From a bacterium (GTDB lineage Bacteria > Patescibacteriota > Microgenomatia > UBA8517), in assembly GCA_030583725.1 (NCBI GenBank), contig CP129472.1, positions 142,958-206,957 on the forward strand: 64,000 nt of DNA, given 5' to 3'. The notes beneath the pieces are model-generated. The model was not told the origin of the DNA. It was given only the letters and a program-made list of their open reading frames with translations, and did no database searches. Position numbers and translations under genes: made by a program. Of the stretch, positions 35,751-62,649 are shown one piece after another (position 1 is the first letter of the stretch; every line of letters starts with the position of its first letter).

Positions 35751-37448
35751 TTAAATGACAAGTCTTTTCAGAAACTCCTCTAAACTTAAGGTGTTTATTA
35801 TATCTTTCTTTTGGCACCAACCTCTTCTTGCAACGTCTACTCCATACCTCATATTATCCATCATTGAAACCTCATGGGTATCAGTCCCCAATGTCAGATT
35901 AACACCTAGTTTGACAGCTTCACGTACTAAAGTATCTGGTAAGTCCAACCGCATTGGGTCTGAATTAATCTCAATCCACTTATTGTTTTTTAGACAAAAG
36001 TCAAAAATAACTTCCCAGTTAAGTTCAACGCCCTCTCTTTCGTTAATTTTTCTTGCAGTTGGATGGGCGAATATTTTCACCTTTGGATGACTAAGAGCTG
36101 TTAAAACTCTTTTAGTCATATCGTCTCTATTAAGATCAAAAACAGTATGAATTGAAACTAATGCAAAGTCTAAAGTTTCTAACCCTTTCACGGAAACTGG
36201 CAAACTTCCGTCCTTACCTATGTCAATCTCGAGGCTATTGAACACTTTTTTTACACTACCTGTTCCACTTTTCACGACTGAGTAATTAAGTTGATCTACA
36301 ACTTCTTTTTTTCTTTTTAAGATATTAATAATTTCAGATTCGCTATGTTTACTTTTACTGGGGTTGTGCTCAGTGAAAGCAATATATTCGTAGTTTAGAT
36401 TATTAGCTTTACTAACTATTTCTTGCATACTGCTAGCACCTAAGTCGTGTGAAGTTTCAATATCAAAATCACTATGTATTTGTAAGTCCCCCTTAACGTC
36501 TTCTACGGAAACCAAATTAGGTAGCTTATCATTTAAAGATGCTTCTATTTCTCCAGTGTCTTCTCTGAGTTCAGGTTCAATATATGTAAGTTTTAAAAAA
36601 TTGTAGAAGTCTTGTTCATTTGCAAAGCTTAATCTTTCTTTCTTTGGGTTTTTAGTGTCTTTTGCTCCATATTCATTCAAACTGTAACCTAATTTTTTGG
36701 CACGTTCTCGAAGAGCAATGTTATGGAACTTACTACCTGTAAAGTGTTGCAGGACTGAGCCATATCTGGCAGGGTCCATTACTAGAATATCAACTTGTAC
36801 ATCACCAGGAAGCAAAAGTGAAGCTGTGCGATCCCCTTTTTCAATAATTTTTTGTGTTTTTGGATATTCTACAAACTTTTTAATGACTTCAGTTGGATTA
36901 TCTGTGGCAACTGCTATGTCAATGTCGCCCACTGTAGCGGTCTTTCTACGCAAAGAGCCTAGTGTATCTAACTTTTTGATGTGGGGGCTCATTTTAAGCC
37001 ACTCCATAACCTCAGAAGCAAGTTTTTCAGCATATGGTAGTAGTAGTCTTTTTGTTTTGGTAGCCATTTTTTGAGCTTCAAGCAGTTTTTCTTTAATTTC
37101 AGGTTTTGGAAGTTCTGCAAGCATTTTCAATGCTGTTTTTAATCCTACTTTGGGCAAAATCATTAGTTTAAATGCATCTTGGGGTATATCTTTCATTAAA
37201 TCTTTAAAATGCTTTGATTCACCAGTTCTAAATACCTCGTCAAGGTGTTTTGCAATTGAAGGCCCAATACCGGGAACATCGTCTAGTTTTCCATCATCCC
37301 ACAAATCTTTAAGTTCTGAAGTGGCATGTTCAACTGAAGTTGCAGCTCTATCATATGCAATTGCCTGAAATTTATACTTTATAGGGTCTTTTAATTGATA
37401 GGTAGCTGATACATTTTTCAAAAGTTCTGCAATTTGAAGATTGGTCAT
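35751..37448 (-). CDS. polX: DNA polymerase X with C-terminal PHP domain (PolX)
   Basis: Pol-beta-like N-terminus 'LQIAELLKNVSATYQLK...FQAIAYDRAA', HhH/fingers/palm 'GDIDIAVAT', C-terminal PHP 'AFTEHNP...GTDTHE'. Confidence 0.85.
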   Translation of the reverse strand: MTNLQIAELLKNVSATYQLKDPIKYKFQAIAYDRAATSVEHATSELKDLWDDGKLDDVPGIGPSIAKHLDEVFRTGESKHFKDLMKDIPQDAFKLMILPKVGLKTALKMLAELPKPEIKEKLLEAQKMATKTKRLLLPYAEKLASEVMEWLKMSPHIKKLDTLGSLRRKTATVGDIDIAVATDNPTEVIKKFVEYPKTQKIIEKGDRTASLLLPGDVQVDILVMDPARYGSVLQHFTGSKFHNIALRERAKKLGYSLNEYGAKDTKNPKKERLSFANEQDFYNFLKLTYIEPELREDTGEIEASLNDKLPNLVSVEDVKGDLQIHSDFDIETSHDLGASSMQEIVSKANNLNYEYIAFTEHNPSKSKHSESEIINILKRKKEVVDQLNYSVVKSGTGSVKKVFNSLEIDIGKDGSLPVSVKGLETLDFALVSIHTVFDLNRDDMTKRVLTALSHPKVKIFAHPTARKINEREGVELNWEVIFDFCLKNNKWIEINSDPMRLDLPDTLVREAVKLGVNLTLGTDTHEVSMMDNMRYGVDVARRGWCQKKDIINTLSLEEFLKRLVI

Positions 37449-37493
37449 GAATAAATTATAGCATCTGATGCTACTTCTTGTGATTAAGAATGA

Positions 37494-37715
37494 CTAACGA
37501 ATACCTAATTCTCTAACTTTTGCATCTAATTGTGCTGGAGTCCATCCTTTTAAAAATGCCTCCTGTTTCAATTTCTTAAACTGCGCGCCATTTTTTAGTT
37601 CGTCGTTTAGTTTTTCTACTCTACTACCTATATTTGTATCTACAGCTGGTCTAGTGATAGCCTCACCTTGTGCAGCAGTAGCGATATCTATCTTTGATTC
37701 AGTTACCTCAGTCAT
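37494..37715 (-). CDS. hypothetical small protein
   Basis: 73 aa, no motif recognised. Confidence 0.25.
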   Translation of the reverse strand: MTEVTESKIDIATAAQGEAITRPAVDTNIGSRVEKLNDELKNGAQFKKLKQEAFLKGWTPAQLDAKVRELGIR

Positions 37716-37762
37716 AATGTAATTATATTATATGTTTGAAAAATATGCAAAAATAATTAAGA

Positions 37763-37960
37763 TTACTGATTTTGTTCATCTTCACCTTTTTTGTCTTCTT
37801 CCCAAACTTTACCTTTCTTTTTAATATTTTCCTTAATAATTTCTTCTTGAACTATTGGTCTTTGATCACCACCCCGAGGAATCTTTTTCTTTTTATCTTT
37901 TTCTAGTGATTCTTCAAGAATTTTTTTTATATCTTCATCAGACAACTGTTTTTCACCCAT
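37763..37960 (-). CDS. small Lys/Glu-rich hypothetical protein
   Basis: 65 aa from internal ATG (MGEKQLSDEDIKK...); trimmed so it does not overlap the upstream PQ-loop gene. Confidence 0.2.
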   Translation of the reverse strand: MGEKQLSDEDIKKILEESLEKDKKKKIPRGGDQRPIVQEEIIKENIKKKGKVWEEDKKGEDEQNQ

Positions 37961-37973
37961 ATATTTGATTTTT

Positions 37974-38297
37974 TTAAGTAATTTTATAAATTGTAACACC
38001 AAACCAAACTGCAAAATCAAAAACTACCCATAATCCATTTAATAAAATCATTGGAAAATCTTTTCTTTTTAAGGAATACATTAACAAAGGTATAGTTAGT
38101 AAACCATACATTAACCAAGTAAAAGAAGAAACTCCTTCAGTTTGGCGTTTGACGTAAATAATGTAAAGCTGATCTAAGGTGGTAAAGGGAAGTAAAACTG
38201 CACAAATATTAGTAACTAAATCTAATCTATCATCCACTCCATTTTTGTTTTTATCTAAAAGAAGAACTTGTTTATTTTTGTATTTTTTAATTATCAT
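37974..38297 (-). CDS. small 3-TM PQ-loop/SemiSWEET-like membrane protein
   Basis: 107 aa; 'LDQLYIIYVKRQTEGVSSFTWLMYGL' resembles the PQ-loop motif with P replaced. Confidence 0.35.
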   Translation of the reverse strand: MIIKKYKNKQVLLLDKNKNGVDDRLDLVTNICAVLLPFTTLDQLYIIYVKRQTEGVSSFTWLMYGLLTIPLLMYSLKRKDFPMILLNGLWVVFDFAVWFGVTIYKIT

Positions 38298-38321
38298 TGA
38301 TTTTAAGATAAATATCTTAGA

Positions 38322-38669
38322 TCATATACTGATATCTATTTCAGCCTTTACCCTAAACCTATTTTTGTCCCCCTTAATCCTACCCGCCTCACTACCGGTG
38401 ACATTAGCAGACACGTTAATTCCATCATTTAGAACACCATCAACACCTATAATCTCCCCATCAATAAACTTGCTGGCCATTCCAATCAGTACTGAGCTCT
38501 CAGGTCCATTTAACTTTGTTCGTGTTTCATTTTCATGCCTGTAAATTGATCCATGAGAATAAGAAGATCTTTCTAAAATTTTCTCATAGAACTTAAGAAA
38601 CTGATCCTCAACCACAGAATCTAAAAAAACTATGTCTACGCACAGCTGTTTCGTGTATTTAGTTCTCAT
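38322..38669 (-). CDS. hypothetical protein (GC-elevated islet)
   Basis: 115 aa; Gly-rich beta pattern 'IDGEIIGVDGVLNDGINVSANVTGSEAGRIKG'; no confident family. Confidence 0.3.
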   Translation of the reverse strand: MRTKYTKQLCVDIVFLDSVVEDQFLKFYEKILERSSYSHGSIYRHENETRTKLNGPESSVLIGMASKFIDGEIIGVDGVLNDGINVSANVTGSEAGRIKGDKNRFRVKAEIDISI

Positions 38670-38778
38670 AACTACTGGTAGTATACCAAAGATTTATATT
38701 TCCGTACTATCCACCTCTAATTAATTTAACAGAATCAATGATACGAGTTTAGAATCCAATTAACACTTTGGTAAGTAT

Positions 38779-39141
38779 TTATAAAGTTTCGTTGTGTGGT
38801 CTTATAAATTGCCTTTTTTCACACATTTGTAAGAATTTGTGAAAATCGGTTACATCGTTTTTATTCATCTCAGAAATTAATGTATCAGCAATCTCTTCAT
38901 TTTCCTCGTCTAAATGAAAAGCTACACTCAAACTTGGTCCTACTAATTGTAAAACTCTAGCCAACCTATGATTTCCATCTACAGCCACCAAACCAAGAGC
39001 GCCCTGGCTTATTTTTATACCATGAGAAGACAAATCGACGGCTCCTTGTGCGAGTAGGCTAGGAATTGCTTTACAAGCCCTGCTCCAGTTCAATTCCCTT
39101 GTTCCATCTCCCGGATGAATAGAGTTGATACTTTCGATCAT
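38779..39141 (-). CDS. hypothetical protein (GC-elevated islet)
   Basis: 120 aa, no confident family. Confidence 0.3.
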   Translation of the reverse strand: MIESINSIHPGDGTRELNWSRACKAIPSLLAQGAVDLSSHGIKISQGALGLVAVDGNHRLARVLQLVGPSLSVAFHLDEENEEIADTLISEMNKNDVTDFHKFLQMCEKRQFIRPHNETL

Positions 39142-39262
39142 ACGTTATTATATAATCAATATTTGAATTTTGCAATATTATAGGTTAAAAGTTTGAGTTG
39201 GGAGATGGTACAGTCAAGTGTACTTTGTGCCTAAAATTCACGGCGAGGTCAATTGTACGAGT

Positions 39263-39820
39263 TTAGAGTTTGTGAATTATTTCTTTAATCTCCTTATTAG
39301 TTTTTACCTGTGCGATATTTGGTGAAAAGTATTTCATACTAACATCATGATGTGTTTGGTCATACGAACCAACACAATCTTTAGCTATTACAATTTCGTA
39401 ATCACGCATATAAGCATCGATAACTGTTGTACGTACACAGGCATGAGTATTTATTCCACAAAAAATTAGGTGGCTAGGTTTTAATTGAGTTAAAACTTCA
39501 TCCAAATTTGTTTTAAAGAAGCCACTATATCTTTTTTTAATGATAAAAGTGTCGTAATCACTCTCGTTCAATCCGTCAAGCAATTCGTTGTCCATTGTAC
39601 CTTCGGCCACTTCAACCTTACCAGACTTTTTATTTCCTAAAGGGGCATCACTTAAATCTGGTTTCATTGATTGTTTTATCCAGACAATAGAAAACTTTGA
39701 ATTTCTAAACTCATTAACTAAATCGTTTATATTTTGAACTAAATTATCTCTTTGTTTATTTAACTCTTCTTTTGCAAAAAAACCTTTTTGCATATCGATT
39801 ATAATTAAGGCTGGATTCAT
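39263..39820 (-). CDS. isochorismatase-family cysteine hydrolase (nicotinamidase-like)
   Basis: 'ALIIIDMQKGFF' N-terminus and catalytic Cys region 'LIFCGINTHACVRTTVIDAY'. Confidence 0.8.
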   Translation of the reverse strand: MNPALIIIDMQKGFFAKEELNKQRDNLVQNINDLVNEFRNSKFSIVWIKQSMKPDLSDAPLGNKKSGKVEVAEGTMDNELLDGLNESDYDTFIIKKRYSGFFKTNLDEVLTQLKPSHLIFCGINTHACVRTTVIDAYMRDYEIVIAKDCVGSYDQTHHDVSMKYFSPNIAQVKTNKEIKEIIHKL

Positions 39821-39918
39821 AAATATATTATACCAAAATACCCAACTTCGTTGTGAAGTATATACGGTTTGACATGGTTAACTGAAGCAAAATACTTAGT
39901 GACATCTATAAATTAACT

Positions 39919-40179
39919 TGGCGGGATCGACGAGACTCGAACTCGCAACCTCTTCCGTGCAATAAATCCTAAAGTTTCCTTTAAGCTTGGACTATCTCAT
40001 CAACCTCGTGGGTTGCCAGGTATATAGTCTCTACACATTTACGACGCATTTGCGACGATTTAGCTCGGGATTACCATTTTAAAGGTTTCCCCGAATTAGC
40101 CTGATGTTCATCTTTATATTGCTAAAAAGAGCTGCCACTTTCGACAGGGAAGCACTCTAACCAATTGAGCTACGACCCC
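39919..40179 (-). tRNA. tRNA-Asp (anticodon GUC) interrupted by a group I intron; CCA encoded
   Basis: 5' exon GGGGTCGTAGCTCAATTGGTTAGAGTGCTTCCCTGT plus 3' exon CACGGAAGAGGTTGCGAGTTCGAGTCTCGTCGATCCCGCCA assemble into a canonical cloverleaf (7-bp acceptor with one G-U, D GCTC/GAGT, anticodon CTTCC/GGAAG loop CUGUCAC, T GCGAG-TTCGAGT-CTCGT). Confidence 0.8.
39960..40143 (-). ncRNA. group I self-splicing intron (184 nt) between anticodon positions U35 and C36
   Basis: Follows exonic U, ends in G; P1-like hairpin with U-G at splice site; P/Q/R/S-like core elements AAUUCGGGGAAACC, AAUCCCGAGC, GUGUAGAGACUAUA, GAGAUAGUCCAAG (P7 GACUA/UAGUC). Confidence 0.75.
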
Positions 40180-40255
40180 ACCAAATTAACTTAATGGTAT
40201 TTTACTATAAAATAGACACGCGTGCTACCAATAATAATTTCTAGTTGGATAAAAC

Positions 40256-40513
40256 CTAATCTGAATATGTCTTTCCGACGACAATACCCTCTATTATTGA
40301 TCCGTCTTTAATATCCAGTGTCATGATTTCATGACAAACTTCACCAAAAAACGTTTTTGGGATGCTAATATGGCAAGCTACACGCGTTGCTACTGTCGAT
40401 CGGTCTACAGGATGACCCTTGTCTTGTGATATAACAACTTTACATTTGTTACAAATTACAAGATGGCCAGTTGAGTCCTTAACTGAAGTGATAGAAATAA
40501 TATCCTTTGACAT
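40256..40513 (-). CDS. hypothetical small protein with CxxC pair
   Basis: 85 aa from ATG 40513 (MSKDIISITSVKD...); 'VICNKCKV' and 'ACH...CHE' possible zinc-ribbon. Confidence 0.3.
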   Translation of the reverse strand: MSKDIISITSVKDSTGHLVICNKCKVVISQDKGHPVDRSTVATRVACHISIPKTFFGEVCHEIMTLDIKDGSIIEGIVVGKTYSD

Positions 40514-40683
40514 TTGGGTTATTATAGGTAGCGAAAGGCACAGAATCAATCACTTTCTAAAATGATGCCTAAGTTTGTCCCACTTGACTTCAAATCAAAT
40601 CTAATATAAATTGCGTTTAGCTTCTAAACACTTATAATTTTTTATAAAGTGACTTGCCCTTCAGAAGATTTTAAAAAATATGA

Positions 40684-41223
40684 TTGGTGGTGAATAATTT
40701 GAAATTTAACTTAAAAAAGACATTGAAAGCTATTAAACTTAATGAATCTTCAATTTCCATGGTCTTAGGTCTAATTGTTGTTTTAATTGTAGGAAGTTTG
40801 ACAGTTAAGTATTTGAGAAATGACAGTGGAAGAATCCCTGAAGAACTATTAAACAACTCAATCGAATCTACAACTAAAAAACATACTGTGGCAAAAGGTG
40901 AAAATCTTTGGATTTTGGCAGAAAATTACTATGGTGATGGTTTTAAATGGGTAGATATTGCAACTGAAAACAAATTAGAAAATGCATCTGTTATAGAAGA
41001 GGGGCAAGAATTGATAATTCCTAACCTTGAAATTGCAGAAGTAGAACAAACAGAGAATGCAATTACCTCAGCAACATATGAAGTAGTAAAAGGTGATTCA
41101 CTTTGGGATATATCAGTCAGAGCATATGGAGATGGTTATAGATGGGCAGACATTGCAAAAGCAAATAATATTGCTAATCCAAACATAATCCACTCAGGAA
41201 ATATACTTGTACTACCTAGGTAA
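40684..41223 (+). CDS. membrane-anchored protein with two LysM peptidoglycan-binding domains
   Basis: TM 'MVLGLIVVLIVGSLTV'; LysM 1 'HTVAKGENLWILAENYYGDGFKWVDIA', LysM 2 'YEVVKGDSLWDISVRAYGDGYRWADIAKANNI'; start ambiguous (TTG 40684 / GTG / later ATG). Confidence 0.7.
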   Translation: MVVNNLKFNLKKTLKAIKLNESSISMVLGLIVVLIVGSLTVKYLRNDSGRIPEELLNNSIESTTKKHTVAKGENLWILAENYYGDGFKWVDIATENKLENASVIEEGQELIIPNLEIAEVEQTENAITSATYEVVKGDSLWDISVRAYGDGYRWADIAKANNIANPNIIHSGNILVLPR

Positions 41224-41261
41224 AAATTGTTTTTAGATGAGGTAAAGATATATAATAATCT

Positions 41262-41390
41262 CGCTAAACAGCGGGGTATGAAATTATGTTTCATACCTAA
41301 AGTCTCTGCGGGATTAGTTAAACAGTCTAACACCTCCTTCCCAAGGAGGAGAAACGAGTGCGACCCTCGTATCCCGCTCAAAATTAAATT
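41262..41390. ncRNA. GC-rich structured RNA candidate in a convergent intergenic gap
   Basis: 11-bp long-range helix AGCGGGGUAUG(41269-79)/CGUAUCCCGCU(41377-87) with two G-U pairs, competing 10-bp local hairpin GGUAUGAAAU/GUUUCAUACC, 7-bp CCUCCUU/AAGGAGG hairpin; strand unresolved. Confidence 0.3.
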
Positions 41391-42430
41391 TAGTCCGTAT
41401 CTTCGGACAATTCTAGTGATTTGATATCAGGCAGTGCCCTTCCTGTTACCCCTTGAAGATCTCCATACATCCCATGAGTATGGTCAATTACTTTTCTAAT
41501 TTCTTTTTCTTGCCTTGCCCATTTGCTACTAAACCACCTTTTTTCTTTTTCTATATCTTCTTGCATGGTTCCAAAGGCTTCTACGATTCCTTCTACTCTA
41601 TGTTTAAATTCATTTCCAGTCAAATACTCATACAACACCTTCATTTTTTCATCTACGTTGGTGGCGTTTTGTTTTTCATGATAGATATTCACAAGATTGA
41701 ATCGTAGAGACATGGCAAGAAGTGTAAAATTACTAATATTACAAACCCAAACCCCATCTTTAAAACCAACACCTTTATCTTTTAAGTCTTCTGGCAAATT
41801 AATTGAGACTAGGACTGCAAGGTCAGCCTTGGCCTGTCTTTGATCTTCTTTAAGTTTGGTAATCCAAGTATCACTCCATTTTGCATTTTTACTTTCCCAG
41901 ATTATGTTTCCGCAATTTCTGCCTAATTTATCAACTACGGTCTGGATTACATCAGCACCCCTAACACCTTTTTTAACTTCATTAATTTCATCATTAGGAA
42001 ATTCCTGTTTTAATTTAGTCTCAATTGTAAGTTCAAGTGTTTCTCCTTGTGTTTGTTGTGATCCTTGATTAGCTTTCTTTTGTGCTTCTTCAAGTGATTT
42101 TTTAAGGTCATTAATTAATTTTTCTTTTTCTACATCTTTTAACTGATGTTCTTCTGCAGCTTTTTTCCTAGCTTCACTTCTGATTGTGTCTTCACTCTCC
42201 ATTAGTTTCTTTTTCATCTCTACTTCTCTCATTTCATCTTTTTCACGCAGGGTTTTTATTTCATCAAGAAGTTTGCCCATATCTGACGTGAATTTTCTTC
42301 TAACTTCATCAACCTCATTTTGGGCTTTTTTACGTTCTTCTAAAATTATGGAGTCTTTAATATCATGGGCTAGTTGCTCAGCAACATCAATTATATTCCC
42401 ACATTTATTACATTTAACAGTATTTGCCAT
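41390..42430 (-). CDS. zinc-ribbon/coiled-coil protein with C-terminal PD-(D/E)xK-like nuclease motif (DUF2130-like), MGE-associated
   Basis: N-terminal 'CNKCGN', long Lys/Glu coiled coil, C-terminal 'GADVIQTV...GNIIWESKNAKW' (D...E-x-K). Confidence 0.5.
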   Translation of the reverse strand: MANTVKCNKCGNIIDVAEQLAHDIKDSIILEERKKAQNEVDEVRRKFTSDMGKLLDEIKTLREKDEMREVEMKKKLMESEDTIRSEARKKAAEEHQLKDVEKEKLINDLKKSLEEAQKKANQGSQQTQGETLELTIETKLKQEFPNDEINEVKKGVRGADVIQTVVDKLGRNCGNIIWESKNAKWSDTWITKLKEDQRQAKADLAVLVSINLPEDLKDKGVGFKDGVWVCNISNFTLLAMSLRFNLVNIYHEKQNATNVDEKMKVLYEYLTGNEFKHRVEGIVEAFGTMQEDIEKEKRWFSSKWARQEKEIRKVIDHTHGMYGDLQGVTGRALPDIKSLELSEDTD

Positions 42431-42433
42431 AGT

Positions 42434-43252
42434 TTATTTTTTGTTTTTCAATTTTAAATAATTTCTGCCAGTTACCACTTTTTGGTTTGTTTTTGATTCT
42501 AAGTCAAGCCTTGCTCGTTTCGCTATTCTACCACCTTTAACAGCAGGAATTTTATTCTCTTTAAAGCCAACTGCATTTTCTGCTTCTGAAATTTGCCTTG
42601 TTGAAAGTTCAGCTAAAGCAGTAAATATCAATTCAGCATCAGACATGTGATCTCTTAAATTTTGATTAGCCAGACCTTTTAGGTTTTTGTGCTCCCTAAC
42701 TGTCAAATCGCTCCACTCTTGATGGATGATGTTTGTTAATATTGCATATTCATTTTCCTTTTTAACCTTGTGATCCTTCCAGTAATCTGTCAACTTGTTT
42801 CGTATTTCCTGACCCATCATTCTCTGCTGTATCCATTTTTGGCTCCTACCCATTCTTTGCCAGTAGTCCCGAGCCCGGTTTAAAGACCTTTCAGGATCTG
42901 ACATATCTTGAATTCTTTGATGGCCTACTTTTGCCAGCCAAAGTTTAATCGGCTCGGCTTTTGGAGATGTAACAGACTGGATTAAACGAAACAAAGTTTC
43001 AACGTCAGCAGCATCAGTCAAGTATTTCTTGCCATCAGTTGAGATCATTTTCAGTTGTACGATTTTTTCGTACACCTTACTATTTTCCAACTTTAACTTA
43101 CGTTTTAGATCAGATAGATATCGTTTTGGAATACTGCTTTCAGTGAGCAAGCCAATTATATCCACTACAGAAAAAAACCATTTTTCTTGTTTTTCATCCC
43201 AATGCCTGCGAATATTTTTTCCTTTAAATATTACTAAATCCTTGGAGGTCAT
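42434..43252 (-). CDS. Bro-N domain protein (phage antirepressor/DinD-like)
   Basis: 'DLVIFKGKNIRRHWDEKQEKWFFSVVDIIGLLTES' Bro-N signature; start at MTSKDL. Confidence 0.55.
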   Translation of the reverse strand: MTSKDLVIFKGKNIRRHWDEKQEKWFFSVVDIIGLLTESSIPKRYLSDLKRKLKLENSKVYEKIVQLKMISTDGKKYLTDAADVETLFRLIQSVTSPKAEPIKLWLAKVGHQRIQDMSDPERSLNRARDYWQRMGRSQKWIQQRMMGQEIRNKLTDYWKDHKVKKENEYAILTNIIHQEWSDLTVREHKNLKGLANQNLRDHMSDAELIFTALAELSTRQISEAENAVGFKENKIPAVKGGRIAKRARLDLESKTNQKVVTGRNYLKLKNKK

Positions 43253-43325
43253 AATTAACAATAACCCCAAGATAATACGAAGTCAATATACATAATCTGT
43301 CAAAAACTATATAATTCCTATGTAC

Positions 43326-43398
43326 GCCGGGGTAACTCAGCTGGTAGAGTAGCTGTATCGTAAACAGCAAGTCGTGAGTTCGAATCTCACCCTCGGCT
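43326..43398 (+). tRNA. tRNA-Thr (anticodon CGU)
   Basis: GCCGGGG-TA-ACTC-AGCTGGTA-GAGT-A-GCTGT-ATCGTAA-ACAGC-AAGTC-GTGAG-TTCGAAT-CTCAC-CCTCGGC-T; all stems pair (one G-U in acceptor); CCA not encoded. Confidence 0.85.
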
Positions 43399-43402
43399 CA
43401 AA

Positions 43403-44762
43403 ATGCTTACAAAATCAGACTTTTTATTATTTTTAAAAGCTCCACTACATCTCTGGGCCAAGAAACACAAAAAATTAGACAAAAAGACCCCCTCTGCATA
43501 TGAACAACATTTAATGAAGCAAGGATATGATGTTGAAAAACTTGCAAGAAAACTATTACCTCACGCAGTTTGGCAAAAACCATATATTACTGATGAACTA
43601 GAAATCAGGCAGGATGCATTAATCAAGTTTGATGATGGTAGCGCTAATTTATATGAAGTTAAAAGCTCAACAGAAGTGAAAAAGGAACATTTGTTTGATT
43701 TAGCCTTTCAAGCAATTGCCACAGAAGAAAAGGTAAAACTTAAAAAAGTTTTCACGGTTACTATAAATAAGGATTATGTCAAAAAAGGTGAAATTGATGT
43801 TAACGCATTTTTTGTAATTACAGACTTAACAAAGCAAATTAGGGAATTAAAACCAGTAGTGCAAGAAAAGATTCTAGACGCCATAAATGTAGCAAATAAA
43901 GAAAGTAAAGACTATATAGAAAACTGCCTAAACCCCAAAACCTGCCCCTGTATTAATCTCTGCTATCCAAATCTACCGGAGAAATCAATTTTTAATATAC
44001 CCTACTTAAATTACAAAAAGAAAAGAGAGTTAGTAGATATGAAAATACTAGACATTACAAAAATTCCAGAGAGTATTGAGTTAAACGAAAAACAAAAAAG
44101 AGTAGTCACAGTAATTTCAAACAACAAGCCATACTTAAACAGTCAAAGATTAAAAGAGTTTTTAGATTCTTTTACATATCCAATTTACTTTTTAGACTAT
44201 GAAACATATTCACTAGCAATACCAATTTATAATAACTACAAGCCATATCAACACATGGTTTTTCAGTATTCACTGCACATAGTAAATAATGATGGAACAG
44301 TAACACATAAAGAGTATTTAGAAACTGAAACAGGAGACCCATCAAAAAATTTAATTAAAAAGTTAAAAAAAGACATAGGCCCAGTTGGCTCAGTCGTTTC
44401 ATGGAATAAACAGTTTGAATGTAGCAGAAATAACGATATGGCACTTCTCTACCCTGAATATAAAGAATTTTTAGAAGGTATTAATAATAGAATGATTGAC
44501 CTTGCTGATTTCATAAACAAAGAAATATATATTCACCCAGACTTTTTTAGGTAGCTGGTCTATCAAAAATGTTTTACCTGTCATGGTTCCTGAGCTTTCC
44601 TACAAAAAATTAAAAGTAAACAAAGGAGACCAAGCAATGTTAACTTGGTGGGAGATGGTAAATAGTAAAACGAAAAGTGAAGCAAAAGATCTCTTGGAAT
44701 ACTGTGCTCTCGATACCCTCGCCATGGTTAAAATTTGGGAAAAGCTAAAAACAATCTTATAA
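43403..44762 (+). pseudogene. Cas4/RecB-like PD-(D/E)xK nuclease fused to DEDDy-type 3'-5' exonuclease (DUF83-DUF2779 architecture), interrupted by a frameshift in a T6 run
   Basis: N-terminal 'DALIKFDD...LYEVKSS' + 'QAIA' + Cys cluster 'CLNPKTCPCINLC'; exo motifs 'FLDYETYS', 'SWNKQFE'; track ORF stops at TAG 44552 right after TTTTTT (44543-48); frame 0 continues '...MLTWWEMVNS...LLEYCALDTLAM' (Y-x3-D) to 44762. Confidence 0.5.
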
Positions 44763-47394: not shown

Positions 47395-48378
47395 TTATTT
47401 ATTGAAGAATTTTATGATATTTTTAGCAAGCGCTTTAATTACAGGTACTGCAACGCTATTGCCAAACTGTTTGTAAGCCTGCATGTCACTTACAGGGATA
47501 ATATAACTTTCTGGATAGCCTTGCAAGCGTGCGGCTTCTCTCGGTGTTATTTTCCTTGGATTTTTTCCTTTTTGTTCAATCAATATTTCTGAACCGTCCT
47601 TGTAATACCTTGCTGAAATTGTGCTTGTGTATTCAGATTCCTCATTAAACAATGAATATCCAAAACCATTTCCTTTTTCTCTGTGTTCTTTCTTTCTTCT
47701 TTGGTGACCAGCCCATAATTTATCGGAAATAGTATGTTTTGGATCAATTTCCTTATCTAAGATATTACCAAGTCTTGTTTTAGTTTTGGGCTCAATAGGA
47801 AATTTAAAATCTACATCCTCTTTAAATCCGATTATGTAGATTCTTGCTCTATTTTGAGGCAAACCAAAATCTTTTGCATTTAACACCTGATGAAAAACTT
47901 TATACCCCAGTTTTTCAAGGGTCCCTACAATAACTTTCAAAGTATTACCTTTGTCGTGCGTTCCCAAATTTCTTACGTTCTCAAGAAAAACAACCTTTGG
48001 TTTGTGATGTTCCACAATTCTAGCAATATCAAAAAAGAGTGTTCCTCTGATGTCTCCAAACCCTTTCTTTAAACCTGCCTGAGAAAATGGCTGGCAAGGA
48101 AAACCTGCGAGCAAAACATCAAACGGTGGTATTTCTTCTGCTTTAATTTTGGTTATATCACCATATGGGACTTCCCCAAAATTAGCACTATAAGTTTTTT
48201 GTGCATGACTATCCCATTCAGAGGAAAAAACACATTCACCATCAACACTTTCAAATCCTAATCTAATTCCACCAATACCTGCAAATAAGTCTATAAATTT
48301 AAATTTTCCTTTTTTCTCTTTTTTAGATGGATTACTAAACAAATCAGTTAAAATTATTGGTTGCTTAACGTTAGCCAT
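47395..48378 (-). CDS. DNA (cytosine-5)-methyltransferase
   Basis: 327 aa; motif I 'FIDLFAGIGGIRLGF', motif IV 'GFPCQPFSQAG', motif VI 'ENVRNL', C-terminal motif X. Confidence 0.9.
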   Translation of the reverse strand: MANVKQPIILTDLFSNPSKKEKKGKFKFIDLFAGIGGIRLGFESVDGECVFSSEWDSHAQKTYSANFGEVPYGDITKIKAEEIPPFDVLLAGFPCQPFSQAGLKKGFGDIRGTLFFDIARIVEHHKPKVVFLENVRNLGTHDKGNTLKVIVGTLEKLGYKVFHQVLNAKDFGLPQNRARIYIIGFKEDVDFKFPIEPKTKTRLGNILDKEIDPKHTISDKLWAGHQRRKKEHREKGNGFGYSLFNEESEYTSTISARYYKDGSEILIEQKGKNPRKITPREAARLQGYPESYIIPVSDMQAYKQFGNSVAVPVIKALAKNIIKFFNK

Positions 48379-48483: not shown

Positions 48484-49404
48484 ATGGATGATTTGCTGGA
48501 AGATGCAGTAAATGTTTGTATTCAATATGACAGAGCTTCTGCTTCACTTCTGCAAAGAAGATTATCAATAGGTTACGCCAGAGCTGCTAGAATTATTGAC
48601 CAACTAGAGTCTGCTGGTGTACTTGGTATGTCTGATGGTAGCAGTAAACCTCGGGAAGTTTTAATTAAATCATATAAAGAATTTAAAACAAAAGATGATC
48701 ATGGGTTAGTTGCTGAAAAGAAAGATGAGTTTAAAGAAACTTCTAAGGAGTATACTCCAATTGTTGCAGATTTTTTAACTGATGATATTAAAAAATTATT
48801 AAAACCTACTGACTTACCATATATAAAAAATGACCTTACCCGAATTGGTAATTTAATTGTCACAGGGAACGTGATTAGTAAAAAGTATGAATATATAAAA
48901 ACTTATTTACTGTTTTTACTTTCAAAGTTTAATTTGTCTGATGTTAGAGTAATAATTGATGACGGGACTGGAAAACTTAAAAAGTTTGGCAGTATCCCAC
49001 ACCTTTTAACTTCCATTATTGATAAATCTGAAGAATCTCTTTCATCACTTCGCTGGCTAAGTCGAGAAATGGATAGAAGAATTGAAATAATTAATAAAGA
49101 TGATAAAACCACTTTTCCTGAGATTATTTACATAGGAAATATATTCAGTTTCTATAACAGTGATATTGAATATGCAATCAAAAGAATTTCTTCAATGGGT
49201 GCATATGCAAAAATTCATTTAATTTTGCTTGGTGATAGACTTGGTGACTTTCCAAAACAAATCAAAGACAATATCCCCGCAAGACTTGAGTTTAGTAAAT
49301 TTGGAGAAGCTGAAGCAGTATTTAGTTTTAAGGAAAAAATAAAAATTAGAATAACTGAATTAGACAAAGTGAAAGTTATAGATTATTTAGCAAATCTTAG
49401 CTAA
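48484..49404 (+). CDS. FtsK/SpoIIIE-family protein with N-terminal gamma (wHTH) domain and degenerate beta (RecA-like) domain - predicted pseudo-ATPase
   Basis: aa 1-60 match FtsK-gamma (DDLLEDAVNVCIQYDRASASLLQRRLSIGYARAARIIDQLESAGV...PREVL); downstream region aligns to FtsK beta (SDVRVIIDD...IPHLLTSII...LRWLSREMDRRIEII; KIHLILLGDRLGDFPKQIKDNIPARLEF) but Walker A is GNVISKKY and Walker B is IGNIF. Confidence 0.6.
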   Translation: MDDLLEDAVNVCIQYDRASASLLQRRLSIGYARAARIIDQLESAGVLGMSDGSSKPREVLIKSYKEFKTKDDHGLVAEKKDEFKETSKEYTPIVADFLTDDIKKLLKPTDLPYIKNDLTRIGNLIVTGNVISKKYEYIKTYLLFLLSKFNLSDVRVIIDDGTGKLKKFGSIPHLLTSIIDKSEESLSSLRWLSREMDRRIEIINKDDKTTFPEIIYIGNIFSFYNSDIEYAIKRISSMGAYAKIHLILLGDRLGDFPKQIKDNIPARLEFSKFGEAEAVFSFKEKIKIRITELDKVKVIDYLANLS

Positions 49405-49449: not shown

Positions 49450-49455
49450 TCTATT

Positions 49456-49586
49456 GAAGCGTACACTAATAACTTAAGTAGTGCCTTAATGTTCCCTCGG
49501 AATATCCGGGACGTTAAAGTTAAGGGTAAACATTATTTAAGACGTCGCTTCACCAATTTACTCAATCTTCGGATTGAGTTTTTTGA
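49456..49586 (+). ncRNA. candidate ~130-nt small RNA (unknown family)
   Basis: Bounded by the promoter above and the terminator below; 5' GAAGCG (49456-61) pairs with CGCUUC (49546-51) as closing helix; internal CCUUAA/UUAAGG and CUCGG/CCGGG hairpins. Confidence 0.4.
49560..49585 (+). terminator. rho-independent terminator
   Basis: CUCAAUC-UUCG-GAUUGAG followed by UUUUUU. Confidence 0.55.
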
Positions 49587-49647: not shown

Positions 49648-49962
49648 ATGAAATTTTCAATTAGACTTCTATATTTATATCTTTTTTCTTTCATTGGGCT
49701 GTTAATTGCTGTGATTGGATCAGTTCAACTTGTTGATTTAGGACTAAAAATATATCTTTTCCAAGATGCTGACAAATATGAATATGCAAGACCTGTAAAG
49801 TTAGAAGGTATGGAAGAAGTAAACTATGAGGAAGAACAAAAAATGGCAGATAGGGAAAACACCAGACAAAGGCAAAGACAAGCTTCAAACGCCATTGCTA
49901 TGATTTTAGTTGGTTTCCCTCTATATAAATATCACTGGAAGCTACTTCAGAAAGAAAAATAA
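49648..49962 (+). CDS. small two-TM membrane protein
   Basis: 104 aa; TM1 'LLYLYLFSFIGLLIAVIGSV', charged loop, TM2 'AIAMILVGFPLY'. Confidence 0.4.
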   Translation: MKFSIRLLYLYLFSFIGLLIAVIGSVQLVDLGLKIYLFQDADKYEYARPVKLEGMEEVNYEEEQKMADRENTRQRQRQASNAIAMILVGFPLYKYHWKLLQKEK

Positions 49963-61408: not shown

Positions 61409-61485
61409 TGGTGGATTCGCCCCGATTTGAACGGGGGGCCTTTGCAATGTGAATGCAACGCTCTAACCAACTGAGCTACGAATCC
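61409..61485 (-). tRNA. tRNA-Val (anticodon CAC), CCA encoded
   Basis: rc: GGATTCG-TA-GCTC-AGTTGGTTA-GAGC-G-TTGCA-TTCACAT-TGCAA-AGGCC-CCCCG-TTCAAAT-CGGGG-CGAATCC-A-CCA; all stems Watson-Crick. Confidence 0.85.
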
Positions 61486-61563
61486 CTATATCTATATTAG
61501 AGTAATAATATCATCTTTTTAGTTCTTTTCACAGAATTGACATCTGGCTTGAATTAACCTAAA

Positions 61564-62649
61564 TTGATTATTGTCGTGGCAAAATTAAATGACATACAAC
61601 TTGCCCTTTCATACGATGATGTACTTCTGGTACCTCAATATTCAAGTATAAATAGTAGAAACGAAGTATCATTAAAAACCAAAATTAGTAACAAAGTTAC
61701 ATTAGAAATACCACTAATAACTGCAAATATGAGTGATGTTACTGACGTAAAAATGGCAACTGCCATTGCAAAACTTGGAGGTCTTGGAGTCATACCAAGA
61801 TTTTTACCAATAGAAATGCAGGCAAACGAGGTTTTTGAGGTCAAAAAAACATCTCAAATTGTTGGTGCTGCAGTTGGAGCTAGAAATGGTATTGTTGAAA
61901 GGGCTGAAAGTTTAGTTAAAGCAGGCGTTGATATTTTGTTCATAGATGTAGCTCATGGCCATATGCAAAAAAATATAGATGCAACTAAAAAGTTAAAACA
62001 ATTGTTTGGTAATTCAGTTGACATTGTATCAGGCAACACAGCAACTTTTGAAGCCACAGATGACCTTTTTAAGGCAGGTGCAGACTGTGTTAAAGTAGGA
62101 GTAGGACCAGGTTCTATTTGTACAACAAGAATTGAAACAGGGTCAGGTATACCTCAAATAACTGCAATTTTAGAAGCTGCCAAAGCTGCAAGGAAACATA
62201 AAAAATTTATAATTGCAGACGGTGGAATTAAAACTTCTGGAGATGTTGTTAAAGCCCTTGCTGCTGGTGCATCTGCAGTAATGGCAGGTAGTATTTTTGC
62301 AGGTTGTGATGAATCTCCTGGTAAGATTGTTAAAATTAAGGGCAAAAAATTCAAAGTTTACAATGCCTCTACTTCAATGGCTGAAAAGAAAAGGCATTTT
62401 TTATTTAACAAAAAAGAAGTTGAATCTCACTATATCAAACAAATTGAAGGAGTAGAGTCAATTGTCCCCTACAAAGGATCCCTTTCATCATTAGTAGAAA
62501 GATATGTTGCAAATATACGTTCCGGCCTAAGTTACTCTGGTGCAGAAAACATCAATAAGTTATGGCAGAACTCAAAATTTGTAAGAATAACCTCACAAGG
62601 ACTAAAGGAAAGTGGCTCTCATGATGTGCTACTATACAACACACGTTAA
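61564..62649 (+). CDS. IMP dehydrogenase/GMP reductase-family protein without CBS subdomain
   Basis: '[13 protein letters not shown]', '[13 protein letters not shown]', '[24 protein letters not shown]' catalytic Cys loop, '[25 protein letters not shown]'. Confidence 0.85.

What the first reader, a model, noticed from the sequence alone, without database searches (positions are those of the whole stretch)
39919..40179. tRNA-Asp(GUC) gene split by a 184-nt group I intron inserted after anticodon U35
Read on the minus strand, 36 nt at 40179->40144 (GGGGTCGTAGCTCAATTGGTTAGAGTGCTTCCCTGT) and 41 nt at 39959->39919 (CACGGAAGAGGTTGCGAGTTCGAGTCTCGTCGATCCCGCCA) form a complete tRNA-Asp: anticodon loop CUGUCAC, all four stems paired, CCA encoded. 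The 184 nt between them start after an exonic U and end with G, the group I 5'/3' splice-site rule. They open with a P1-like hairpin (exon CUGU|C pairing GGCAG, giving a U-G pair at the splice site). They carry near-verbatim group I core elements: P-like AAUUCGGGGAAACC, Q-like AAUCCCGAGC, R-like GUGUAGAGACUAUA (compare Azoarcus tRNA-Ile intron GUGUAGAGACUAGA) and S-like GAGAUAGUCCAAG, so P7 = GACUA/UAGUC. Known bacterial tRNA group I introns sit in Leu(UAA), fMet, Ile(CAU) and Arg(CCU) genes of cyanobacteria/proteobacteria. One in tRNA-Asp of a CPR-like genome would be unusual, and it is the only tRNA-Asp visible in the window.
Basis: partly seen in the sequence, partly recalled or inferred. 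Interest (0 to 1): 0.8.

Follow-up and report, generated by a model that had tools for sequence, protein, structure and literature searches.

The report
Known group I intron in tRNA-Asp

Summary
Window 39919-40179 (minus strand) holds a 36-nt and a 41-nt exon that join into a canonical 77-nt tRNA-Asp(GUC) with an encoded CCA. The 184 nt between them are a group I intron (Rfam RF00028, 82.3 bits, E 2e-19). Of the eight possible boundaries in the anticodon loop, only 35/36 gives U at -1 and G at the intron end.

I collected 25 more tRNA-Asp genes interrupted at the same site and aligned them. The alignment supports P1-P9, including the P3/P7 pseudoknot: 82% of cells are paired against 35-49% when partners are slid, with many compensatory changes.

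It is not novel. [quoted passage not shown] That paper describes this class and shows precise in vitro self-splicing of a tRNA-Asp intron that is 75% identical to this one. Its tables also show this is the genome's only tRNA-Asp.

Verdict: real, correctly interpreted, already known.

The parts
40144..40179 (-). 5' exon of tRNA-Asp(GUC): acceptor 5' strand, D arm, anticodon stem 5' strand and loop up to U35
   Evidence: Sequence GGGGTCGTAGCTCAATTGGTTAGAGTGCTTCCCTGT. ARAGORN calls tRNA-Asp(gtc) after joining.
39960..40143 (-). 184-nt group I intron with no ORF
   Evidence: RF00028 at 82.3 bits, E 2.2e-19. Identical to the intron listed at 182917-183100 of GCA_030583725.1 in Table S3 of PMC13011429.
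39919..39959 (-). 3' exon of tRNA-Asp: C36 onward, T arm, acceptor 3' strand, discriminator G73 and encoded CCA
   Evidence: Sequence CACGGAAGAGGTTGCGAGTTCGAGTCTCGTCGATCCCGCCA.
40132..40147 (-). P1: exon CUGU plus intron C1 paired with the internal guide GGCAG, placing the U(-1).G wobble at the 5' splice site
   Evidence: All 5 pairs are formed in 26/26 sequences. The U.G pair is invariant and the first intron pair covaries (AU 12, CG 12, GC 2).
40111..40130 (-). P2 hairpin capped by a GCAA (GNRA) tetraloop
   Evidence: All 8 pairs show changes on both sides. All 10 sequences of the window's own clade show a GNRA loop at L2 in register; the other clade is out of register by a base in this MAFFT alignment.
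40100..40104 (-). P3 5' strand (UCAGG)
   Evidence: Pairs with 40016-40020. 3 of the 5 pairs have compensatory changes and 78% of cells are paired.
40065..40094 (-). P4 (6 bp), J4/5 and a very short P5 (3 bp with an 8-nt loop)
   Evidence: 93% of cells are paired and 4 pairs have changes on both sides. RNAalifold recovers the helix on its own.
40035..40064 (-). P6
   Evidence: The basal pairs GC/GU are 100% paired with covariation. The inner helix is length-variable and poorly aligned by MAFFT.
40024..40029 (-). P7 5' strand (GACUAU), the guanosine-binding helix
   Evidence: Five pairs with 39990-39994 are invariant in 26/26 sequences. P7 crosses P3, which makes the pseudoknot.
40016..40020 (-). 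P3 3' strand (CCUGG)
40001..40015 (-). P8 hairpin (5 bp with a 5-nt loop), following P3 directly
   Evidence: It pairs in the window sequence. It is length-variable in homologues and not well aligned, with 47% of cells paired.
39990..39995 (-). P7 3' strand (AUAGUC), preceded by J8/7 AUGAG
39968..39985 (-). P9 hairpin (7 bp) capped by a GAAA tetraloop
   Evidence: 95% of cells are paired and 6 of 7 pairs have compensatory changes. L9 is GAAA in 23/26 sequences.
39960..39960 (-). Terminal guanosine (omega G) at the 3' splice site
   Evidence: Of the 8 possible boundaries in the anticodon loop, only this one combines U at -1 with G at the intron end.
40204..40231 (-). Promoter-like site TTGGTA-16-TATAGT, about 25 nt upstream of the tRNA 5' end (weak evidence)
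   Evidence: A 9/12 consensus match. The number of such sites in the region is not above the shuffled expectation, so this is only a candidate.

Best explanation
This is the single tRNA-Asp(GUC) gene of a Microgenomatia (Patescibacteria/CPR) genome, interrupted between anticodon nucleotides U35 and C36 by a compact 184-nt group I intron that carries no endonuclease gene.

Inferred mechanism. The precursor is transcribed as one RNA. The intron folds into the P1-P9 core. Its internal guide GGCAG pairs with the exon's CUGU, so U35 forms the U.G wobble that marks the 5' splice site. A free guanosine bound in P7 attacks there. The intron's last G then takes the same site, and the freed 3'-OH of U35 attacks the 3' splice site. 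That joins U35 to C36 and restores the anticodon loop CUGUCAC.

Because no other tRNA-Asp exists in the genome, splicing must work in the cell.

Shown here: the sequence, the family match, the exon cloverleaf, the unique U/G boundary, covariation support for the helices, and identity to the published locus. Shown by others: precise in vitro self-splicing of a 75%-identical tRNA-Asp intron. Inferred: that this particular 184-nt copy self-splices.
For: RF00028 full-length hit at 82.3 bits, E 2.2e-19.

The joined exons are called tRNA-Asp(gtc) with all four arms, G73 and CCA.

Only the 35/36 boundary has U(-1) and omega G.

The 26-sequence alignment A1 gives 82.3% of cells paired, against 35-49% when partners are slid. 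The covariation score is 0.393 against at most 0.193, and 0/500 shuffles reach the observed values. P1 is 100% paired with an invariant U.G. P3, P4, P2 and P9 carry compensatory changes, and P7 is invariant.

RNAalifold independently recovers P1, P2, P4, P5, P6, P7, P9 and the flanking anticodon stem.

The locus is 261/261 nt identical to the Table S3 row for GCA_030583725.1 in PMC13011429, with the same intron coordinates.

Table S2 of that paper gives Asp = 0 (tRNAscan-SE), 1 (ARAGORN) and 1 (tFind) for this complete genome.

The paper shows GTP-dependent splicing, a sequenced ligated product, and loss of ligation in the omega G-to-C mutant, for the GCA_001029755.1 tRNA-Asp intron. That intron matches this one at 150 of 200 aligned positions.

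The DNA is identical in three independent assemblies.
Against: This exact copy has not been assayed. It is the shortest length quoted for the published census (range 184-894 nt). Its P5 is only about 3 bp, so self-splicing efficiency without help is an extrapolation.

The single-sequence MFE is not exceptional (z = -1.38), although MFE folding cannot represent the pseudoknot.

The P8 and inner P6 columns are poorly aligned, so those helices rest mainly on the window sequence itself.

My homologue set was selected with a pattern that required ...TGT at the 5' boundary and G+CAC at the 3' boundary. Conservation of those boundary bases in the set is therefore not independent evidence.
Confidence: 0.93

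Rival explanations
1. The intron is genuine but does not self-splice efficiently. In the cell it would depend on a protein chaperone or cofactor, because the peripheral elements (P5, P6, P8) are cut down to a minimum.
For: 184 nt is the minimum length reported among 333 bacterial tRNA introns. P5 is about 3 bp with an 8-nt loop and P8 is 5 bp. The single-sequence folding z-score is only -1.38.
Against: A 196-nt homologue with the identical P3-P5 and P7 core sequence self-splices precisely in vitro without protein. L9 is a GNRA tetraloop in 24 of the 26 sequences, and L2 is one in all 10 sequences of the window's own clade; such loops usually make stabilising tertiary contacts (general knowledge of small bacterial group I introns).
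Confidence: 0.1
2. The gene is a dead tRNA pseudogene carrying a decayed intron relic.
For: None specific. tRNAscan-SE-type tools do not call the gene (Table S2).
Against: It is the only tRNA-Asp in a complete genome. Every core helix is intact, and P1, P7 and omega G are conserved across 26 genomes. The exons are 94% identical to an intron-less tRNA-Asp of another genome (Table S3).
Confidence: 0.03
3. The boundaries are shifted by two bases, making this a tRNA-Ala(UGC) gene with an intron at 33/34, as ARAGORN or tFind call some sister loci.
For: A cut two bases upstream also leaves a U at -1, and ARAGORN calls the product tRNA-Ala(tgc). Such calls were made for GCA_001029755.1 and GCA_023898525.1.
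Against: With that cut the intron would end in U, not G. U33 pairs with A, not G, in P1. The acceptor stem has G3-C70 and discriminator G73, not the G3.U70 and A73 of tRNA-Ala (plus textbook identity rules). The sequenced splice product of the homologue is at 35/36. The paper lists Asp 35/36 for this locus from all three approaches.
Confidence: 0.01
4. The locus is an assembly chimera or artefact.
For: The source is a metagenome-derived genome.
Against: The sequence is 100% identical across the locus in three independent Logan assemblies, including an 82.8-kb contig. The same architecture is found in 25 other genomes.
Confidence: 0.01

Closest known systems
The same locus as published: tRNA-Asp(GTC) 35/36 intron of GCA_030583725.1 (Microgenomatia), Table S3 of Nakagawa et al., mSystems 2026 (PMC13011429; bioRxiv 10.1101/2025.07.03.662931)
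   Same: 261/261 nt identical, same strand, same exon/intron boundaries, same 184-nt intron.
   Different: Nothing. The window is evidently a piece of that genome (window 39919-40179 corresponds to genome 182876-183136).
tRNA-Asp(GUC) 35/36 intron of Candidatus Woesebacteria GW2011_GWF1_31_35 (GCA_001029755.1, CP011214; locus L078), shown to self-splice in vitro
   Same: Same host tRNA (the 73 exon bases listed for it differ from the window at one position), same insertion site, and the same core sequences for P3-P5, J6/7-P7 and P7'. 150 of 200 aligned intron positions are identical, and changes in P3, P8 and P9 are compensatory.
   Different: It is 196 nt against 184 nt, with longer P6 and P8 hairpins. 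It has been assayed and the window copy has not.
tRNA-Asn(GUU) 35/36 group I introns of Patescibacteria
   Same: Same unusual insertion site between anticodon positions 35 and 36, same phylum, and the same published subgroup (IA).
   Different: Different host tRNA. Four of them carry HNH homing-endonuclease genes, whereas the window intron has no ORF.
Classical bacterial tRNA group I introns (tRNA-Leu(UAA) of cyanobacteria, tRNA-fMet, tRNA-Ile(CAU) of Azoarcus, tRNA-Arg(CCU)), subgroup IC3
   Same: They are small, ORF-less introns in the anticodon loop.
   Different: Their insertion sites are 34/35, 33/34 and 36/37 rather than 35/36. They are classed IC3, whereas no Patescibacteria tRNA intron was classed IC.

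Membership tests
Group I intron (Rfam RF00028) | Covariance-model match above the curated gathering score | tested here: met
   82.3 bits against 50, E 2.2e-19, model positions 1-253 of 253.
Group I intron (Rfam RF00028) | The 5' splice site follows a U that forms a U.G wobble with the internal guide in P1 | tested here: met
   U35 pairs with G9 of the intron. The U.G pair is present in 26/26 aligned genes and P1 is 100% paired.
Group I intron (Rfam RF00028) | The intron ends with G (omega G) | tested here: met
   G at 39960. It is the only one of 8 candidate boundaries with both U(-1) and G(omega).
Group I intron (Rfam RF00028) | Conserved core P3-P8, with P3 and P7 forming a pseudoknot, supported by covariation | tested here: met
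   P3 is 78% paired with 3 compensatory pairs. P4-P5 is 93% paired. P7 has 5 invariant pairs. Overall 82.3% of cells pair against 35-49% when slid, and 0/500 shuffles reach that. P8 is length-variable and poorly aligned.
Group I intron (Rfam RF00028) | Guanosine-dependent two-step self-splicing | not testable with these tools
   Shown in vitro for the 75%-identical GCA_001029755.1 tRNA-Asp intron, with an omega G-to-C control and a sequenced product. Not done for this copy.
tRNA-Asp(GUC) | The joined exons fold into a cloverleaf with anticodon GUC | tested here: met
   ARAGORN calls tRNA-Asp(gtc), 77 nt, anticodon loop CUGUCAC.
tRNA-Asp(GUC) | Identity features fit Asp rather than the alternative Ala reading (G73 discriminator, no G3.U70) | tested here: met
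   The discriminator is G and the acceptor stem has G3-C70. The identity rules come from textbook knowledge. The exons are 94% identical to an intron-less tRNA-Asp (Table S3).
Patescibacteria 35/36 tRNA-Asn/Asp intron class (Nakagawa et al. 2026) | Insertion between anticodon nucleotides 35 and 36 | tested here: met
   The paper lists 35/36 for this locus.
Patescibacteria 35/36 tRNA-Asn/Asp intron class (Nakagawa et al. 2026) | The host is a Patescibacteria genome | tested here: met
   Exact identity to the GCA_030583725.1 (class Microgenomatia) entry. Window GC is 33.5%. Most homologues come from Microgenomates, Woesebacteria, Daviesbacteria, Paceibacterota and Saccharibacteria MAGs.
Patescibacteria 35/36 tRNA-Asn/Asp intron class (Nakagawa et al. 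2026) | Structural subgroup IA by subgroup covariance models | not testable with these tools
   The paper says no Patescibacteria tRNA intron was classed IC and 25 of 28 introns at 35/36 were IA. The per-intron table (S5) is not in the held text. I see no room for the extra P7.1/P7.2 helices, because P8 follows P3 directly.
   No subgroup models are available here. The published classification argues against it.

The most novel reading that the evidence does not exclude
At 184 nt this is the shortest length quoted for the published census of 333 bacterial tRNA introns. From my own knowledge, it is about 20 nt shorter than the 205-nt Azoarcus intron that is usually cited as the smallest natural self-splicing group I ribozyme.

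It might be more than a tolerated parasite. It sits in the only tRNA-Asp gene of a genome with few regulators. Its guanosine-dependent splicing could gate the supply of tRNA-Asp according to GTP level or growth state, which would make it an RNA-level regulator. Nakagawa et al. speculate along these lines for the class.
Probability: 0.08. Interest if true: 0.5.

Novelty: already known. Interest (0 to 1): 0.12.

Why it matters
The practical point is annotation. Standard tRNA finders miss this gene (Table S2 of PMC13011429), which makes the genome look as though it lacks tRNA-Asp and lowers completeness scores for CPR genomes.

Biologically, it is one more instance of a class that is already described and experimentally validated.

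The only residual interest is its size. At 184 nt (and 183 nt in locus L074) these are among the most compact natural group I introns, which could be useful as minimal ribozyme scaffolds.

Tried and rejected
- **Loose search pattern.** The genome contigs pattern (ATAGTCC...GCAC.....RGGTYGCG) was too loose. It therefore gives a lower bound, not a census. It did not return the window's own genome.
- **Failed regular expression.** My first pattern for the 5' exon was too strict and found nothing. It was corrected.
- **Single-sequence folding.** MFE folding of the precursor gave z = -1.38, which is not informative because the pseudoknotted core cannot be modelled.
- **Spurious ARAGORN call.** ARAGORN with long introns also proposes a tRNA-Gln with a 980-nt intron at 61409-62481 (-). 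I reject this as a ghost call, because it overlaps the intact tRNA-Val(CAC) at 61409-61485 and has no group I match even at E <= 0.1.
- **Other structured RNAs.** A permissive Rfam search of the whole window found no second intron.
- **Literature on minimal size.** A search for a citable statement on the smallest group I intron returned nothing usable. That comparison rests on my own knowledge.
- **Subgroup call.** Table S5 of the paper, which holds the per-intron subgroup calls, is not in the held text, so IA versus IC3 could not be checked for this copy.
- **Earlier report.** Table 1 of Williams 2020 is an image, so I could not see whether Asp at this position was already listed in 2020.

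Full report
**1. What is there**

On the minus strand, window 40179-40144 (36 nt) and 39959-39919 (41 nt) flank a 184-nt insert at 40143-39960.

Joined, the two pieces are called tRNA-Asp(gtc) by ARAGORN. The product is 77 nt, has all four arms, anticodon loop CUGUCAC, discriminator G and an encoded CCA.

Default ARAGORN and the Rfam tRNA model do not see the gene. They find only tRNA-Gly(CCC), tRNA-Thr(CGU) and tRNA-Val(CAC) in the window. ARAGORN run with introns allowed does find the tRNA-Asp.

Rfam RF00028 (group I intron) matches 39968-40159 (-) over the whole model at 82.3 bits, against a gathering score of 50, with E = 2.2e-19.

**2. Boundaries**

I slid a 184-nt intron through all eight positions of the anticodon loop. 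Only the cut after U35 gives both a U before the 5' splice site and a G at the intron's end.

The two-base-shifted alternative would give tRNA-Ala(UGC) with an intron at 33/34. Published tools sometimes output this for sister loci. That alternative would end the intron in U. It also conflicts with the acceptor stem (G3-C70, G73), which lacks the alanine identity pair (plus textbook identity rules).

**3. Structure**

By hand, the intron folds into a minimal group I architecture (coordinates verified):
- P1: exon CUGU plus C1 pairs with GGCAG, with the U.G wobble at the splice site.
- P2: capped by a GCAA tetraloop.
- P3: UCAGG/CCUGG.
- P4: 6 bp.
- P5: very short.
- P6.
- P7: GACUAU/AUAGUC.
- P8: 5 bp, following P3 directly.
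- P9: capped by a GAAA tetraloop.
- A terminal G.

To test this, I scanned one genome per GTDB species with a pattern built from the P7 3' strand and the 3' exon. The pattern was loose and the scan was cut at 120 rows. It still yielded 25 further tRNA-Asp(GUC) genes with 183-246-nt inserts at the same site, all called tRNA-Asp after joining.

On the 26-sequence alignment A1, my structure including the P3/P7 pseudoknot performed as follows:
- 82.3% of cells are paired, against 35-49% when the 3' partners are slid by 1-3 columns.
- The covariation score is 0.393, against at most 0.193 for the slid versions.
- 0 of 500 shuffles reach the observed values.
- P1 is paired in every sequence, with an invariant U.G.
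- P2, P3, P4 and P9 carry many two-sided changes.
- P7 is invariant.
- P8 and the inner part of P6 vary in length and are badly aligned by MAFFT, so they are not tested well.

RNAalifold, which knows nothing of my drawing, recovers P1, P2, P4, P5, P6, P7 and P9. It also recovers the covarying tRNA anticodon stem that closes the whole intron.

One caveat applies. My selection pattern required TGT and G+CAC at the boundaries, so conservation of those particular bases in the set is built in.

**4. It is already published**

[quoted passage not shown] The paper reports the following:
- In vitro, the tRNA-Asn intron of GCA_016700035.1 and the tRNA-Asp intron of GCA_001029755.1 splice precisely with GTP. 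The ligated products were sequenced, and an omega G-to-C mutant blocks exon ligation.
- 19 of the 28 introns at 35/36 found in 4,934 complete bacterial genomes are from Patescibacteria.
- None of the Patescibacteria tRNA introns fall in subgroup IC, and 25 of the 28 introns at 35/36 are IA.

Their Table S3 contains a row for GCA_030583725.1 (Microgenomatia, minus strand, Asp(GTC) 35/36, gene 182876-183136, intron 182917-183100). Its sequence is identical at 261/261 positions to window 39919-40179, with the same exon/intron case boundaries. The window is therefore part of that genome.

Their Table S2 (header checked) gives tRNA-Asp counts of 0 (tRNAscan-SE), 1 (ARAGORN) and 1 (tFind) for this complete genome. 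The interrupted gene is thus the only tRNA-Asp.

The assayed Woesebacteria intron (locus L078 here) matches the window intron at 150 of 200 aligned positions. The P3-P5 and P7 cores are identical, and the differences in P3, P8 and P9 are compensatory.

Earlier, Williams (bioRxiv 2020, 10.1101/2020.01.27.920355) had already expanded the four classical intron-bearing bacterial tRNAs to 21 cases with the tFind tool.

**5. How it most likely works**

The mechanism is standard group I chemistry:
- The gene is transcribed as one precursor. A weak promoter-like site, TTGGTA-16-TATAGT, lies about 25 nt upstream.
- The internal guide selects U35 through the U.G wobble.
- Exogenous guanosine bound in P7 cleaves the 5' splice site.
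- The terminal G swaps into the same site.
- The 3'-OH of U35 joins to C36 and rebuilds the GUC anticodon.

What is shown here is the architecture and its evolutionary conservation. What is shown by others is catalysis, in a close homologue. What is inferred is activity of this 184-nt copy. That inference is strongly implied by its being the sole tRNA-Asp gene in the genome.

There is no open reading frame in the intron, so it is not independently mobile.

**6. Rivals**

- A decayed relic is unlikely, because the core is intact and conserved and there is no back-up gene.
- The tRNA-Ala reading fails the omega G rule and the identity rules.
- An assembly artefact is excluded by 100% identical DNA in three independent Logan assemblies and by 25 parallel cases.
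- Partial dependence on a protein helper in vivo cannot be excluded for so small an intron. The homologue needs none in vitro.

**7. Comparison and novelty**

The claim that such an intron would be unusual is out of date, because this is the characteristic tRNA intron type of the phylum and this locus is itself in the literature.

The suggested kinship with the Azoarcus IC3 intron was recalled from memory and is not supported by the published subgroup calls. I could not run subgroup models. The intron shows no room for the P7.1/P7.2 helices often seen in IA introns, so the subgroup label remains model-based.

Two small points go slightly beyond the paper:
- One copy (L074) is 183 nt, a base shorter than the 184-nt minimum the paper quotes.

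**8. Verdict**

The feature is real, it was correctly interpreted, and it is already known. Interest is low.

Noticed in passing
window 49455-49552 (+): A strong match to the Rfam DUF3800-V RNA motif (RF02964, 63.5 bits against gathering 37.4), but no DUF3800 gene lies next to it. Upstream is an ORF with an N-terminal FtsK gamma domain plus a partial FtsK/SpoIIIE domain (48484-49404 +). Downstream is a small DUF5671-like ORF (49648-49962 +). A C5 DNA methylase lies at 47395-48378 (-).
   Followed up: partly
window 40132-40147 (-) and the following CTCTTTTTAG: The simple terminator scan flags the intron's P1 hairpin plus the U-rich 5' strand of P2 as an intrinsic-terminator-like site. GCAGCUUUUU-like sequence is common at this spot in the homologues. 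It is probably just P1/P2, but a terminator-like hairpin inside an essential tRNA precursor is curious.
   Followed up: no
loci L001, L021, L054, L074, L095, L114 (also L035): MAGs labelled 'uncultured Gammaproteobacteria' or 'Pseudomonadota' carry tRNA-Asp 35/36 introns; L001, L021, L054, L074, L095 and L035 belong to the window's own clade. Exons are nearly identical to the Microgenomatia gene and local GC is only 34-43%. Either the taxon labels are wrong or the intron class reaches outside Patescibacteria.
   Followed up: partly
locus L074:4039-4221 (+): This tRNA-Asp intron is 183 nt, one base shorter than the window's 184 nt, which is the minimum quoted in PMC13011429.
   Followed up: no
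alignment A1 (window plus 25 loci): The tRNA-Asp introns fall into two sequence clades. One has GGCUAAUUCGGGGAAACC and GUGUAGAGACUAUAUACC. The other has GGGAUAUCGGUGAAGGC and CCGUAGAGACUAGAUACC. Daviesbacteria (a Microgenomatia lineage) carry the second type, which is otherwise seen in Paceibacteria and Saccharibacteria. Intron clades therefore do not simply follow host classes.
   Followed up: no
window 35751-44554: The neighbourhood of the tRNA gene holds a PolX-like polymerase with a PHP domain (35751-37448 -), an isochorismatase-family hydrolase (39263-39820 -), a LysM protein (40684-41223 +), DUF2130 (41390-42430 -), a Bro-N domain protein (42434-43270 -) and DUF2779 (43403-44554 +). A run of five small ORFs between 37494 and 39141 (-) was noted; the one I scanned myself (38779-39141) has no Pfam match, and the contig look-up lists none for the others.
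   Followed up: partly
window 61409-62481 (-): ARAGORN with long introns allowed proposes a tRNA-Gln(ttg) with a 980-nt intron. It overlaps the intact tRNA-Val(CAC) at 61409-61485 and has no intron-family match, so it is most likely a ghost call.
   Followed up: partly
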